Below, in pieces: positions 21,001 to 30,000 of a DNA stretch of 31,076 bases. The position numbers were made by a program. Source of the stretch: Bacteroidales bacterium (GTDB taxonomy: Bacteria > Bacteroidota > Bacteroidia > Bacteroidales > CAIWKO01); contig DAOORA010000010.1 in NCBI GenBank assembly GCA_035389045.1, forward strand, positions 62,001 to 93,076. The letters are read 5' to 3'. Positions within the stretch are counted from its first letter, which is position 1, and each line of letters opens with the position of its first letter.

Positions 21001-24000
21001 CTTAAAAATAATTTATTTAAGTAATTATTTAATAACGTGAAGCACAATGTTATCCTGTTTTTTGTTTTTATCAGTTTAACGGGTACTATTTTAAATGCCC
21101 GGTTGCTGGAAGCTTATGTGATCTCTTCCGGAGGTTACTATACTTCGGCTGCCGGTTCTTTTTGTGTTACGCTGGCCGAAACGACCATGGTGCAGACCTT
21201 GTCATCCATGGGTAATTTTCTGACACAGGGATTTCAACAACCCGACGAATGGTATTCATCCATCCAGGAGGAGCCTGTACAGGGAAACTTTGTTGTTTAT
21301 CCCGATCCTAACTATGGTAATATTATTGTAACTGTGCAATCCAAAGAAAATGGCGAGGCACAACTAAGTATTTATGATGTGCTGGGGCAAAAGGAATTTT
21401 CCATACAAAAGACCATTGTCACCGCAGCTAACCTTGAATATATAGATATTCGTGGTTATTCCATGGGTATTTATTTTCTCTTGTGCTAATAGGTTGATGA
21501 AAACGGCAAAATGAATTTAAAGTCCTGAAAATCAACACAACTAATTAAATAAAAAAGCAAACTATGAGAACAACAATTGCCAAAATCATTTTTTCAGTAT
21601 CTTTTTTATTGATTACGGGCTTTTCATTGGCTCAGGTGCCGCATGCATTTAATTATCAGGCTGTTGCCCGCGATGTGTCTGGAAATGTGCTGCCTGACAA
21701 GATACTGGGCATCAGGGTTTCACTGCACCTGGGAACAGCGATGGGAGCCGTAGTTTATTCGGAAACATTTACTGCGATCACTAATGCCTATGGCCTGTTT
21801 ACCTTGGATATAGGGCTTGGAACCACAATTTCTGGGCAATTTGATACGATAGCCTGGGGTAAAAATCACTATTACATGCAGGTGGAAATGGATCCTACAG
21901 GCGGTGCAACATACATTGATATGGGAACCAGCCAGTTGCTGAGTGTTCCCTATGCCATGTATGCTGAAAACTCCGCATGGAAAAGAAATGGGTCAAATAT
22001 CTTTTATGATGCTGGAAATGTTGGGGTTGGATTAGCTGACCCCAGCCAAAAGCTGCATATAAAAGGAACTTTCAGGGTTGATGATCCAAATCCAATGATC
22101 CAATTAATAGACACTACTGCTTTTAAGGGTTATGTTCAGTCCTATCATAACGATATGATTTTTGCCAATGCCAATGATACCGGCAGTATTGAATTTTGGA
22201 CCAACTATGCTGAAAAAATGAAAATTAAAGCCAATGGTAACGTGGGCATAGGAACCACCAACCCTGCCAATAAATTTGAAGTTATCAATTCGGAAAGCGC
22301 TAAATTCAGGGTGGGAACAATTACTTCGCTCGGAAAAGGCTTTGGCCAGGAATATGACTCAATCACTCCAGGTTATTTTATTGCACATGGAGGCGAATAC
22401 TGGCATTTTTGTTATGCGGACACTCCCGATTCTGCCTATACAAGAAAAGTGACCCTTGACGGCAGGGGCAATATGTTCCGTCCATCCATCAATAATGTTA
22501 TCAGTCTTGGAAATCTTTCATATAAATGGGCTGCTGTTTATGCCGTAAACGGAACTATTCAAACTTCAGATTTACGATATAAGGACAATATATCTGATAT
22601 TCAGTACGGGCTTGATGAAGTGTTGAAACTTCGCCCGGTTTCCTACAGGTGGAAAGACGATAACCTTAACATTGGAACCGGAAAAAATCTCGGTTTTATC
22701 GCCCAGGAACTGGAAACCATTGTTCCTGAGGTAGTTGTACATAAGCAGACAGAAATTGATAATGAAACCAACCATCCTGCCGGCGAATACCCTGACACTT
22801 ATGGCGTGAAATACAGTGAACTTATTCCGGTGCTGGTAAAAGCCATACAGGAGCAACAAACCCAGTTTGTAAAAGCCATACAGGAACAGCAAACCCAGAT
22901 AGAACAATTAAAACAGGAAATAAAAATATTGAAAGGGCAATGACAATGCCCGTAAGCCTTGCAATTTTCAATAATATAACCCGTTGATGATGACTGTCCG
23001 GCAAAGGGTTGTCTTATTAATAATACCCTGGAATTCACTCCTGGTTTTTTTAATGAAATTTTAATAATAAAATATTTTTTTATTTATTTAATCACTGTTG
23101 TCCGGTAAAAATATTTTAAATATGCTGAATAGCTTTATTTTCAGAACATTTACAACATATCGCCACCTACGGGGCTTTATTTTTCATTGTAATGTTTTTT
23201 CTACCAATATGCCGCCTCTAACGAGGCTAAAAAAGTTCCAAAGGTCTATAATATTATCATAATGAATAATTTGCCAACTTATAAAAGCGCCGTAGGTTCG
23301 AAATATTACATAGTTAATAAATTAACCGGACAATAATGTTATTTAACAAATTTATTGTTTTTATAAACATAAATGATTAAATTTGCTTTATTAATCGTAC
23401 AATTTTTAAATTAATCAAACCTTATGAAACGAAAATTTATGCTACTGTTCATTTCCGGAGTTATGATAGTGTTTCTTTCTCATGCACAGTCGCTGACACC
23501 TTTTGTGATCTCTTCATCCGGTGGTTATTATTCTTCGGCTGCCGGTTCTCTATCGGCTACAGTGGCCGAAATGACCATGGTGCAGACTTTATCTTCCATG
23601 GGTAATTTTCTGACACAGGGATTTCAGCAACCCGGCGAATGGTATGTATCCATCCCGGAGGAGCCGGTGCAGGGCAACCTGTCCGTTTATCCCAATCCCA
23701 GTTATGGTAAATTCAATGTAACGGTGCAATCCAAAGAAAAAGGGGAGGCAGAGCTCAGCATTTATGATGTACTGGGGCAAAAAACCTGTTCCAGCCGTAT
23801 GCACATTGTACCCGGCGCTAACACTGAGTATGTGGATATCCGTGGTTATTCCATGGGCATATATTTACTCGAATATCTTTACACCGGAGAAAACGGTAAA
23901 AAGGAATCTAAAGTTCTGAAAATCAATGTAATCAATTAATCATATAAATAAAATGCCATGAAAACAACCGTTACCAAAATCATTTGTTCATTGATCTTTT

Positions 24001-27000: not shown

Positions 27001-30000
27001 TTCAATTTATAACATATAAACCATAAAATTTTTTAAACCATGAAATCACCATTTATAAAGATCATCTTTTCATTAACCTTTTTATTGATCACGTGCTATA
27101 CTTTCGCCCAGGCGCCGCAGGCATTTAATTACCAGGCTGTTGCCCGCGATGTCTCGGGAAACGTGCTGCCTGACCAGATACTGGGGATTAAGGTTTCACT
27201 GCACATGGGAACAGCAACAGGTGCGGTAGTTTATTCGGAAACTTTTACACCGACGTCAAATTCCTTTGGACTGTTTACCATAGGCATAGGTCTTGGAACT
27301 GCTATTTCCGGGCAGTTTGATACGATTTCCTGGGGCAAAAATCACTATTATATGCAGGTGGAAATGGATCCTGCGGGCGGCGCGACCTATGTTGATATGG
27401 GAACCAGTCAGTTATTGAGTGTGCCTTATGCAATGTATGCAGCTCATACAGAGGGAATTGGTTTTTCCGCATATAGGAGTGCAACGACTCAATTAATTGC
27501 TGCAGGTTCATACACCGAAATTGTTTTTAATTCAGAGAATTATGATGATGGTAATGGCTATAACCCAACTAATGGTTATTATACCGCACCTTCAGCCGGA
27601 GTGTATCATTTTGATGCATCTGCCCGGCTAACCGGAACGGCAACGGAAGGGCAGACAACTGTTATTGTTCTTGTTGTCAATGGAAATCAAAAAAGGATGA
27701 AAAGGATGTTATCCGAAACAGATGCTTTTAGTATAGATGTTTCTGCTGATCTTAAGTTAAATGCCGGAGACATAGTGAATGTTGAAATATATAGCCAAAC
27801 AGAAACGTCTGCTATGTATATCAATAATATTTGTACATTTTTCTCAGGGCATAAGGTTTATTGATGTTGAGGAAAAATATCTTTTCTTTTTCAGGTATGC
27901 GTATTATAGCAGAAAGCACAGCGGCGAAAACGGAAAATAGGAATCTAAAGTGTTGAAAATTAATGGAATAATTAATCATAAAAAAATATAACATGAAAAC
28001 AACGGTTACCAAAATCATTTTCTCATTGATCTTTTTAGTTGTCATGGGCTATTCTTTTGCCCAGGCGCCCCAGGCATTCAATTACCAGGCCGTTGCCCGC
28101 GATATTTCGGGAAATGTATTGCCCAACCAGCTTTTGGGTATCAGGGTTTCACTGCATATGGGAACAGCCACGGGAACCGTAGTTTATTCGGAAACCTTTA
28201 CTCCGACCACTAATCCCTATGGTTTATTTACCCTAAGCATAGGTATAGGAACCTCTGTCTCCGGGCAATTTGATACGATTGCATGGGGTAAGAATCAATA
28301 TTACATGCAGGTGGAAATGGATCCTGCGGGCGGAGTGACGTATACTGATATGGGTACCAGTCAGTTGCTTTCTGTTCCTTATGCTATGTATGCTGAGAGA
28401 ACCAAAGCATTGCCTCCGGGTACTTCTGGACAAACTCTCGCTCATGATGCCTCAGGATGGGTAGCCAGTGATTTTCTTGTTAATACCGGAGTCCGCATAG
28501 GTATTGGAACCACCACACCGGGATTCTTATGTGAGATGAAATCCTCTCAGTCCTATTTACATATTAACTCCACAGGAACTTTCGGAGGTATTTTACTGAA
28601 CAGGCCTGATACGAATTCATATATGAGACTGATGTATCGCACTGATGATAGTAATAAATGGTATGTAGGCCTGCTGGGGGCCAAAGATGGTTATTCTGTT
28701 TCGAGAGCAAACAGCGATGATGGTACATTTCATATAAATCATAATAATGGTTATGTAGGAATCGGAACAATTGCGCCAACCAATATCTTTGAAGTAGTAA
28801 CCGGAACTTCAGGAAGCAAATTCCGTGTAGGCTCAGTCACATATGGCTCTGGTTTTGGCCAGGATTTTAACAGCAGTAATGCCTCATATTTTCTGGCTAA
28901 TGGCGGCTCTTACTGGCATTTTTGCTATGCGGCAACTCCTGCAGATGCATATACAAGAATAGTGTCCATTGATGGCGGAGGAAATGTTTTCCGTCCTTCT
29001 GCAAACAATACAGTAAGCTTAGGAAACTCAGGTTATAAATGGACCGCTGTATGGGCAGTGAACGGAACCATACAGACTTCTGACCTGCGTTATAAAACCG
29101 ATATCGCTGACATACCTTACGGGCTTAAAGAAGTTTTGAAACTTCGCCCTGTTTCTTATAGCTGGAAAAATGAAAAGCTGAATACCGGTACAGGCAAAAA
29201 TCTTGGCTTTATTGCCCAGGAAATGGAAACATTGGTGCCTGATGTTGTGGTTCATACTCAGATAGAAATTGACAAAGAAACCGATCAGCCCGGAAGTGAG
29301 TATCCGGATGCCTACGGCGTGAAATACAGCGAGCTTATTCCTGTGCTGGTAAAAGCTATTCAGGAGCAACAAGCTCAGATTGAACTGCTGAAGCAGGAAA
29401 TTAAAACCCTGAAAGAAAAATAGTTTTATACTGACGTGATGAGCATTATGGAATGATGCTCACCGGCATAATGGTTATATAACAGAATACGGCGGATATT
29501 GCGGGGGGCGTTTCCACGGTAAAGTGCTACCGGAGGGATGTGCTGCTGTTTTAATATAGTGGAAGCCAGCCAGAGCCCGAAAGCAGAAGCTGTATAATAC
29601 TCTCCGCAAAAATGCTTGAAAGCGGCAACAGCTTGTTTATCAAATATCTCGTTAATTACTGAATGATACCACTTGTCAGTTGCATCGTCGCCGTTAAGTC
29701 CTGCAACAAAAAGGTCTATATCGGTGGCTGATAAATTATTATCTTTCAGTATGTTATTGATTGTATCATGGATGCAGGTAATTGATTTGGGTTTGTATAA
29801 TGTCTTTAAACAATCCAGGCGGGCATAGGAATTGGGACGTATGTCTTTTGTCAGCGTAAAATAAACAGAACCCTCACCTGGAATGGTGCCCTTTCCGGGA
29901 TTTTTCAGCATGTCAAGATGGTTTTCAGCTTGTTGCCGCCACAAACCCAACAGGCCGGAAATATTATAATGATTTTCAGAGATTTCGTCTATTCCGCCCA

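What a model noticed while it worked through the whole genome (the two positions that open the first line are those of the whole stretch)
21037..29423. T9SS carrier-passenger gene pairs: CTD-bearing LTQGFQQ adaptor upstream of CTD-less trimeric fibre proteins
A 50-aa N-terminal motif on eight T9SS-type proteins is genetically coupled to a 115-aa N-terminal domain on 19 secreted proteins that have no T9SS sorting domain and mostly carry trimeric heads (S74, C1q, YadA head; collagen in homologues). The domain is related to the Bdellovibrio MAT fibre N-domain whose surface anchor is unknown; the T9SS partner is the candidate carrier or anchor in Bacteroidota.
Evidence so far: Profiles find 7 motif genes and 19 whole passenger genes; an eighth motif variant (g01016) was read by eye; 7 of the 8 are directly followed by a passenger, the last ends at a contig edge. 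None of the 19 has a T9SS domain hit. In other Bacteroidia a passenger lies directly downstream in 14 and upstream in 2 of 27 loci. Weak hit to Bdello_MAT_N, E 2.5e-6. The motif folds as a low-confidence beta hairpin alone.
(Added by a program. Inside this text positions count along the whole contig: contig position 62,001 is position 1 of the stretch shown here. "Call 12" and the like, gene names such as g00115 and contig names such as C1 are that model's own, and its searches are not shown. The text may have been shortened before it was handed on; [...] marks where a part breaks off. The agent that wrote the report below was given it as the finding of a first reader that could run no searches.)

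Follow-up and report, generated by a model that had tools for sequence, protein, structure and literature searches.

The report
Three-strand anchor for trimeric surface fibres
Small surface-sorted proteins carry a 50-residue peptide that, in a structure model, grips all three chains of a neighbouring adhesive fibre at its base, which would explain how such fibres, including those of the predator Bdellovibrio, are held on the cell in several unrelated bacterial groups.

Summary
The gene pairs are real. The window holds three carrier genes (one decayed) and five CTD-less passenger genes; the genome holds 8 and 19. In a 150-genome Bacteroidota sample, 37 of 38 motif genes lie within 3 kb of a passenger. 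A complex model (ipSAE 0.85, best control 0.02) puts ONE 50-residue motif across THREE passenger N-domains, one strand on each domain's conserved first strand. This matches the motif's ~19-residue internal repeat. The pairing is not specific to the T9SS: the homologous motif (hhalign 92%) sits beside homologous fibre genes in Planctomycetota, Verrucomicrobiota, Chloroflexota and others, fused to other tails. The passenger domain is homologous to the Bdellovibrio MAT N-domain (hhalign 97.5%). Small lipoproteins with a similar repeated tail lie directly upstream of some Bdellovibrionota MAT genes, but their homology to the motif is not significant. Best reading: a pseudo-threefold adaptor that captures a fibre trimer by its base and tethers it through whichever sorting signal the lineage uses; in Bacteroidota it may also carry the fibre through the T9SS. 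Binding is modelled, not measured. Export and anchoring are inferred. Not found in my literature searches.

The parts
21037..21489 (+). Decayed carrier gene: motif present, CTD cut short by stops and a frameshift (remnant of the last strand runs on to about 21547)
21564..22943 (+). Passenger 1: signal peptide, MAT-type N-domain (21633-21980), stalk, S74 chaperone; no CTD
23424..23939 (+). Carrier 2 (171 aa): signal peptide, three-strand motif, linker, type A T9SS CTD
23958..25184 (+). Passenger 2: MAT-type N-domain (24027-24374), stalk, S74; no CTD
25530..25766 (+). Copy of the DNA upstream of the first carrier (part of an 81% identical repeat, 20795-21970 against 25530-26707): trace of tandem duplication
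25767..26282 (+). Carrier 3 (171 aa): signal peptide, motif, linker, type A T9SS CTD (residues 88-171)
25830..25979 (+). The motif itself (carrier 3 residues 22-71); in the model it touches all three passenger N-domains
26301..27026 (+). Passenger 3 (241 aa): MAT-type N-domain and an unclassified tip domain; no CTD
26370..26717 (+). MAT-type N-domain used for the models: seven-strand Ig-like sandwich; first strand (residues 6-15) is the modelled docking edge
27040..27864 (+). Passenger 4: MAT-type N-domain (27109-27456) and C1q head; no CTD
27918..27992 (+). Remnant of a carrier gene's 3' end in front of passenger 5 (84% identical repeat 26224-26690 against 27918-28382)
27993..29423 (+). Passenger 5: MAT-type N-domain (28062-28409), stalk, S74; no CTD

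Best explanation
A two-gene surface-display module. The passenger is a homotrimeric MAT-type fibre: a conserved N-terminal Ig-like base, a variable stalk and a variable adhesive tip, with no sorting signal of its own. The carrier is one chain whose 50-residue motif is three tandem strand units (period about 19 residues). It folds on binding and lays one strand against the first strand of each of the three base domains (1 carrier : 3 fibre chains; modelled). The rest of the carrier is a swappable address. In this genome it is a type A T9SS CTD: both proteins go out by Sec, meet in the periplasm (inferred), the CTD is recognised by SprA/PorV, and PorU would cut it off and fix the remaining short peptide to A-LPS (established T9SS chemistry, inferred here). 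The fibre then hangs by its N-terminus with its tip outward, which a CTD on the fibre itself could not give. The fibre probably crosses the outer membrane with the carrier (inferred, about even odds). One carrier type probably serves several passengers, also in trans. Other lineages fuse the same motif to type B CTDs, dockerin-like, FlgD-Ig and short Chloroflexota tails. A small lipoprotein is the candidate counterpart in Bdellovibrionota (about even odds).
For: Complex model: score 0.85 (runs 0.85, 0.83, 0.86), best of 3 controls 0.02; the mark was reached by 116 of 157 solved complexes and 2 of 215 mismatched pairs; runs agree in at least 89% of contacts; partner pLDDT at least 79, against 28 when the passenger was replaced. 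Best contacts: carrier 28 with copy 3 residues 8-10, carrier 43-48 with copy 2 residues 6-13, carrier 63 with copy 1 residue 10. Best internal repeat lag 19 in both motif families (shuffle P 0.002 in PVC/Chloroflexota, 0.13 in Bacteroidota). Interface columns are better conserved than the others (0.81 against 0.72, 26 against 82 columns, P 0.017), and the YQ of the docking strand is conserved in all three passenger families. Coupling: Bacteroidota sample 37 of 38 motif hits within 3 kb; genomes 27 both, 1 motif only, 12 passenger only, 110 neither. Chloroflexota sample (81 genomes) 10 with motif, 11 with passenger, 10 with both; 29 of 37 hits within 3 kb. Pattern-selected loci of other phyla: 58 of 77 with a same-strand passenger. 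Homology: a Bacteroidota-only motif profile hits 24 ORFs at E<=0.01 among 9,357, all 24 motif ORFs, 0 in reversed controls; hhalign motif 91.7%, passengers 97.5, 97.1, 96.5%. SprA and PorU are in this genome. No solved relative of either part was found by sequence or fold, so a pass from memory is less likely.
Against: No measurement of binding, export or anchoring. The complex job used my own alignments and a 3+1 set-up unlike the tool's calibration, and only one stoichiometry and one pair were folded. Only 40 of 72 Bacteroidota and 33 of 56 Chloroflexota passenger hits have a detected motif within 3 kb; of 20 passenger stretches followed up, 7 showed no motif neighbour at all. 6 of 19 passengers here have no intact carrier nearby, and 8 of 19 show no trimer hallmark. 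The Bacteroidota internal repeat is not significant alone (P 0.13). The Bdellovibrionota lipoprotein tail is not a significant homologue of the motif (hhalign 0.4% and 0.07%; shuffle P 0.07 and 0.10) and lies upstream in only 10 of 49 MAT loci, 9 of them one close family. Kin are not independent, so the genome tallies overstate.
Confidence: 0.7

Rival explanations
1. The carrier binds the three N-domains only transiently, as a trimerisation template or export pilot; the fibre is released or held by something else afterwards.
For: A pseudo-threefold peptide suits nucleation of a trimer. Carriers are fewer than passengers (8 to 19 here; 3 to 18 in G154). 8 of 19 passengers have no S74, YadA or C1q hallmark.
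Against: The tails fused to the motif are retention or sorting signals (type A and B CTDs, GC-type dockerin, FlgD-Ig). The modelled interface is large (260-280 contacts). S74 passengers bring their own folding chaperone and still pair with carriers.
Confidence: 0.12
2. The carrier is an anchor only: the fibre crosses the outer membrane by its own route and is captured outside; there is no hitchhiking through the T9SS.
For: The same pair exists in five genomes where no SprA was found, so the fibre family does not need the T9SS in general. A review statement has it that T9SS effectors are recognised by their own CTD (PMC12618676, Introduction).
Against: The passengers show no CTD and no other export domain beyond the Sec signal; both partners pass through the periplasm; no other route was identified here.
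Confidence: 0.1
3. Binding is real but the ratio is different (each fibre chain binds its own carrier, or carrier and N-domain build a chain by strand exchange like a pilus).
For: Only the 3+1 set-up was folded. One motif ORF gave a weak hit to the CPR pilus tip protein PamT (E 0.0021), from a strand-exchange pilus (PMC13278184).
Against: The single motif used three separate segments on three equivalent edges and has a matching internal period. No ORF holding both motif and N-domain was found among 118 motif ORFs. The PamT hit is 17.5 bits against a cut-off of 240 and appeared in 1 of 10 motif proteins scanned in that call.
Confidence: 0.05
4. The genes are neighbours only through tandem duplication and shared regulation; the proteins do not bind.
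For: The window is an array of recent duplications, 75-88% identical.
Against: Coupling holds across phyla, in reversed gene order (Chloroflexota: nearest passenger upstream in 23 of 29; Bacteroidota: downstream in 33 of 37) and with unrelated tails; the complex model passes its controls.
Confidence: 0.03

Closest known systems
Bdellovibrio MAT (mosaic adhesive trimer) fibres, Caulton et al. 2024, PMC10769870; NCBIfam NF053851; Pfam 38.1 PF30789 (assigned to the domain by the Atlas)
   Same: Signal peptide, conserved beta-rich N-domain (hhalign 97.5%; same strand order in two models), variable stalk and tip, S74 in a subset. The paper's Supplementary Table S3 already lists MATs from FCB, PVC and OP3 bacteria.
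   Different: The paper states that the surface element bound by the N-domain awaits identification. The partner gene, the three-strand motif and the 1:3 mode are not in the passages read. The window's N-domains lack a MAT insertion and score below the NF053851 cut-off.
T9SS type A cargo, and type B cargo with cognate PorP/SprF shuttles (PMC12618676, PMC10994853)
   Same: The carrier is an ordinary type A CTD protein; adjacent cargo-helper gene pairs are known for type B.
   Different: There the cargo bears the CTD and the helper is a membrane barrel. Here the helper bears the CTD and the large cargo has none.
PAAR on VgrG/gp5, and monomeric phage gp38 on trimeric gp37 (recalled; two searches found no paper to cite)
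   Same: One chain with internal pseudo-threefold symmetry caps a homotrimer through strand pairing.
   Different: No sequence or fold link was found; those cap the distal tip of a spike or fibre, this binds the base and links it to a cell-surface sorting signal.
Donor-strand pili, including the CPR Pam pilus with its anchor PamR (PMC13278184)
   Same: A strand from a partner protein pairs with an Ig-like domain; an anchored partner ends the structure.
   Different: Those are 1:1 links in a polymer and fill a missing strand. Here three strands of one chain are modelled on three domains, and the N-domain folds with confidence alone (pLDDT 89).
eCIS baseplate anchor domains eBAP1-5 (PMC12923769)
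   Same: Conserved N-terminal anchor domains on trimeric fibres with swappable tips (S74, C1q).
   Different: They dock on a baseplate; no injection-system genes flank this locus. I did not compare the profiles.

Membership tests
MAT fibre superfamily (passengers) | Conserved beta-rich N-domain directly after the signal peptide, homologous to MAT_N | tested here: met
   hhalign 97.5%, E 6e-12, 113 columns, against an alignment of 35 MAT-type domains; 6 of 6 such genes tested pass the NF053851 cut-off; same strand order
NCBIfam NF053851 Bdello_MAT_N subfamily | Score over the curated cut-off of 60 bits | tested here: not met
   18 matches in the genome, 19.6-32.1 bits, none over the cut-off
MAT fibre superfamily (passengers) | Variable C-terminal tip, S74 chaperone in a subset | tested here: met
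   7 S74, 3 YadA head only, 1 C1q, 4 Lcl_C, 4 none, of 19
MAT fibre superfamily (passengers) | Homotrimeric fibre | tested here: inconclusive
   Trimer hallmarks in 11 of 19; three N-domains modelled together at pLDDT 92-93 around the carrier; not measured
MAT fibre superfamily (passengers) | Surface display and adhesion | not testable with these tools
   Needs experiment
T9SS type A substrate (carriers 2 and 3) | Sec signal peptide and TIGR04183/PF18962 CTD over cut-off, SprA and PorU in the genome | tested here: met
   signal peptide read by eye
T9SS type A substrate (carrier 1) | Complete CTD to its last strand | tested here: not met
   Ends 22 residues early; stops and frameshift
T9SS substrate (passengers) | Own type A or B CTD | tested here: not met
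   0 of 19 in Pfam; 0 of the window's 5 in NCBIfam
Same motif family in PVC, Chloroflexota and others | Sequence homology to the Bacteroidota motif | tested here: met
   shuffle P below 1 in 300
Same motif family, Bdellovibrionota lipoproteins | Sequence homology to the Bacteroidota motif | tested here: inconclusive
   In-register global alignment but hhalign at most 1.3%, shuffle P 0.07 and 0.10; internal period 21, P below 0.001
PAAR-like trimer cap | PAAR fold and motifs | tested here: inconclusive
   No Pfam, NCBIfam or PDB sequence hit for the motif; the motif was not folded and searched alone; a likeness of mechanism only
Donor-strand pilus (chaperone-usher, Pam) | Incomplete Ig fold plus donor strand in each subunit, with chaperone or usher genes | tested here: inconclusive
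   No fused motif + N-domain ORF among 118; no such genes seen beside the locus; one weak PamT hit

The most novel reading that the evidence does not exclude
A bacteria-wide display system: one pseudo-threefold peptide, fused to whatever surface signal the lineage owns (T9SS CTD, dockerin-like, FlgD-Ig, Chloroflexota tail, lipid), captures MAT-type fibre trimers by the base. It lets CTD-less trimers ride the T9SS in Bacteroidota, and small lipoproteins of this kind are the missing surface anchor of the Bdellovibrio prey-recognition fibres.
Probability: 0.4. Interest if true: 0.93.

Novelty: categorically new. Interest (0 to 1): 0.86.

Why it matters
It names a testable partner for a domain whose anchor the MAT paper left open, with predicted contact residues and ratio. 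It offers a way for trimeric adhesins to be shown tip-outward in bacteria whose sorting signals sit at the C-terminus. In Bacteroidota it predicts T9SS cargo without a CTD, a class that CTD-based secretome lists would miss (19 genes in this genome). The tails fused to the motif also point to surface-sorting signals in Chloroflexota, Verrucomicrobiota and Planctomycetota. A 50-residue tag that captures a trimer could serve surface display.

Tried and rejected
Fold searches of both N-domain models gave only generic Ig-like matches (Foldseek none at E<=0.001; best Z 7.1, rmsd 2.9, 82 aligned; best Z 6.2); this does not show a new fold. PDB sequence searches with four profiles gave nothing significant. 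The Atlas feature search with the motif gave only unnamed Bacteroidota clusters under 0.9. Profile comparisons of the Bdellovibrionota lipoprotein tail with the motif were not significant. Searches with one lipoprotein against phages and plasmids found nothing useful. No Bdellovibrionota whole genome could be reached, so B. bacteriovorus HD100 itself was not examined. No natural fusion of motif and N-domain among 118 motif ORFs. Two metatranscriptome runs gave scattered short contigs at depth under 7 over genes and spacers alike, which says nothing on transcription or operon structure. The PamT hit was followed into PMC13278184 and dropped as too weak. SprA was not found in five non-Bacteroidota genomes, but incomplete genomes and a silent control mean absence is not shown. 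Earlier findings of this scan: three look-ups returned nothing, one returned two unrelated notes. Literature searches found no paper on the pair or on a MAT anchor; two found none to cite for PAAR. An earlier count said 15 of 15 passengers lay downstream; it is 14 downstream and 1 upstream (corrected in entry 4).
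Full report
OBSERVATION. The window's 21-29 kb stretch holds eight genes on the + strand between an S9 peptidase and a ketoacyl-synthase-like gene. Three are short carriers: signal peptide, a 50-residue motif ending LTQGFQQ, a linker and a type A T9SS CTD. Five are passengers: signal peptide, a shared 116-residue N-domain, then S74 (three), C1q (one) or an unclassified tip (one), with no CTD. The first carrier is decayed. The array grew by tandem duplication: units are 75-88% identical, and a remnant of a carrier's 3' end lies before the last passenger. Genome-wide profiles over 30,401 ORFs give 7 motif ORFs and 19 whole passengers plus one fragment; an eighth, variant carrier was read by eye. 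7 of 8 carriers are directly followed by a passenger. Of the 19 passengers, 7 follow a carrier directly, 5 lie further down a carrier-led array, 1 lies directly upstream of a carrier and 6 have no intact carrier nearby. 11 of 19 carry a trimer hallmark; none has a CTD. SprA and two PorU genes pass their cut-offs.

COUPLING IN BACTEROIDOTA. In 150 evenly drawn genomes of the phylum, 38 motif hits (E<=0.01) and 72 passenger hits (E<=1e-5) were found outside this genome. 37 of 38 motif hits have a same-strand passenger within 3 kb (33 downstream, 4 upstream); without the 15 loci used in the profiles it is 22 of 23. By genome: 27 both, 1 motif only (a borderline hit), 12 passenger only, 110 neither. 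The reverse is looser: 40 of 72 passengers have a detected motif within 3 kb. I fetched 20 of the 32 others: 6 had a motif neighbour at E<0.05 with at least one profile, 7 had a weaker or by-eye one, 7 had none. Five of these neighbours end in a type B CTD over cut-off; other homologues end in a dockerin-like tail. A named example is the Aureispira anguillae plasmid pAUEa pair WP_264793647/WP_264793648.

BEYOND THE T9SS. A profile built from Bacteroidota alone hit 24 ORFs at E<=0.01 among 9,357, all of them pattern ORFs, and none in reversed controls; hhalign gives 91.7%, E 7.7e-7. Behind the motif stand other tails: GC-type dockerin, FlgD-Ig, an unclassified Verrucomicrobiota domain and a short xLPLVxR end in Chloroflexota (both read by eye; their role as sorting signals is my inference). 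Of 80 loci with flanks, 77 held an in-frame motif ORF, and 58 of these had a same-strand gene with a homologous N-domain (hhalign 97.1%); two loci are the same contig. I scanned 65 of the 71 such genes: S74, collagen, gp5 trimer, FG-GAP, FGE and other tips occur, many have no Pfam hit. An unselected sample of 81 genomes from the phylum of a Chloroflexia genome gave 10 with motif, 11 with passenger, 10 with both; 29 of 37 motif hits lie within 3 kb, mostly behind the passenger, and 4 of the 8 misses start within 1.3 kb of a contig end. In five further genomes 15 of 20 motif hits lie within about 3 kb (read); one has 18 passengers and 3 carriers. No SprA was found in five such genomes (absence not shown).

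STRUCTURE. The passenger N-domain folds as a seven-strand Ig-like sandwich (pLDDT 89) with no close solved relative. Three copies were folded with one carrier motif: score 0.85, best of 3 controls 0.02; the mark was reached by 116 of 157 solved complexes and 2 of 215 mismatched pairs; runs agree in at least 89% of contacts; partner pLDDT at least 79. These counts hold only roughly, since I used my own alignments and a 3+1 set-up. Each N-domain uses the same face (residues 6-15, 51-60, 84-88, 95-106). The surest contacts are carrier 28 with copy 3, carrier 43-48 antiparallel with copy 2 residues 6-13, and carrier 63 with copy 1. Independently, the motif's best internal repeat lag is 19 in both families (P 0.002 and 0.13), and interface columns are more conserved than the rest. 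The model supports binding; it does not show it.

BDELLOVIBRIO LINK. A second short recalled pattern fetched 94 metagenome loci; 49 hold 59 MAT-type ORFs, and 6 of 6 tested pass the NF053851 cut-off. In 10 of the 49 loci a small ORF ending in a repeated G-Y-x-V tail lies directly upstream of the MAT gene, and no hit of its profile at E<=0.001 lies elsewhere in these loci; 9 of the 10 are one close family, one is decayed and one is cut. The family has 27 representatives at 50% identity, nearly all 80-140-residue lipoproteins, with named members from Pseudobdellovibrionaceae and Bdellovibrionota. On the Bdellovibrio sp. HM001 plasmid pBdHM1, found through the MAT domain alone, an 80-residue lipoprotein gene (BdHM001_35640) sits directly before the MAT-like gene and is the top hit of this profile among 201 ORFs, weakly (E 0.026). 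The tail has a period of 21 (P<0.001) and aligns in register with the motif, but not significantly. It is a candidate by position and layout, not a shown homologue. 39 of 49 MAT loci had no such neighbour, and HD100 was not examined.

MECHANISM. Shown: gene pairing, domain layout, homology of motif and N-domain across phyla. Modelled: 1:3 binding by strand addition. Inferred: assembly in the periplasm; CTD recognition, cleavage and A-LPS attachment of the carrier by the known T9SS route (PMC12618676, Introduction; PMC10994853, passages); tethering of the fibre by its base; co-export; service in trans. The logic is geometric: the T9SS anchors at the C-terminus, where these fibres keep their tip and their self-cleaving S74 domain, so a separate adaptor is needed to hold them the right way round. 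My odds: binding 0.85, lasting tether 0.7, ride through the T9SS 0.5, lipoprotein as MAT anchor 0.5.

COMPARISON AND NOVELTY. The passengers belong to the wider MAT superfamily, which the MAT paper already extends to FCB and PVC bacteria (supplement 1, passages); it leaves the bound surface element open (passages), and a 2026 review adds none in the passages read (PMC13689555). The carrier works like PAAR on VgrG (recalled) or like a donor strand (PMC13278184, first part and passages) but was not shown to belong to either. eBAP domains (PMC12923769, passages) dock fibres on baseplates. Searches found no description of the pair; the library lacks most subscription papers, one supplement file was unreadable, and preprint supplements are closed, so a prior mention is not excluded. 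I rate the adaptor as a new kind of display module, interest 0.86.

Noticed in passing
L040:5362-6528 (-), Phycisphaerae: A MAT-type passenger whose tip hits HAP2-GCS1 (gamete fusogen family) over the Pfam cut-off (46.4 bits, E 2.9e-12).
   Followed up: no
G000:C3:113177-117658: A 1,490-residue fibre-like gene between two passengers with a different N-terminus and no motif or MAT-type hit; possibly a second class of CTD-less fibre.
   Followed up: no
G000:C60:9566-12624: A passenger split by a stop into a 376-residue N-part and a 616-residue S74 part.
   Followed up: no
G000:C43:14900-15450: Decayed carrier gene (stops, no profile hit) directly upstream of a passenger, seen by eye.
   Followed up: partly
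L259:2264-2920 and L260:3780-4406: In two genomes a 210-residue gene that looks like a small outer-membrane barrel (by eye; no NCBIfam hit for L259) sits between carrier and passenger.
   Followed up: partly
G000:C3, C5, C9, C20 carriers (about 520 aa): Long carriers insert prealbumin-like, dockerin-like and further domains between motif and CTD, which would act as a spacer.
   Followed up: no
ESM Atlas: Three unnamed Bacteroidota clusters of 80-91 residues resemble the motif and have no CTD family; fragments or tail-less carriers.
   Followed up: no
window 22836-22898: A 30-33 bp tandem duplication in the coiled coil after the S74 domain of passenger 1.
   Followed up: no
window 23140-23310: Intergenic stretch that by eye resembles Bacteroidota REP-type repeats (likeness recalled, not tested); two loose ends of RNA-run contigs fall here.
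   Followed up: no
window 16288-20882: recA (recognised by eye), a TPR lipoprotein and an S9 peptidase precede the array; about 240 bp around the peptidase's 3' end are repeated at 25530.
   Followed up: partly
L033-L153: The tails fused to the motif (xLPLVxR in Chloroflexota, a FYRL-ending domain in Verrucomicrobiota, IFADGF in an Acidobacteriota record) have no NCBIfam family in the examples scanned and are candidate surface-sorting signals.
   Followed up: partly
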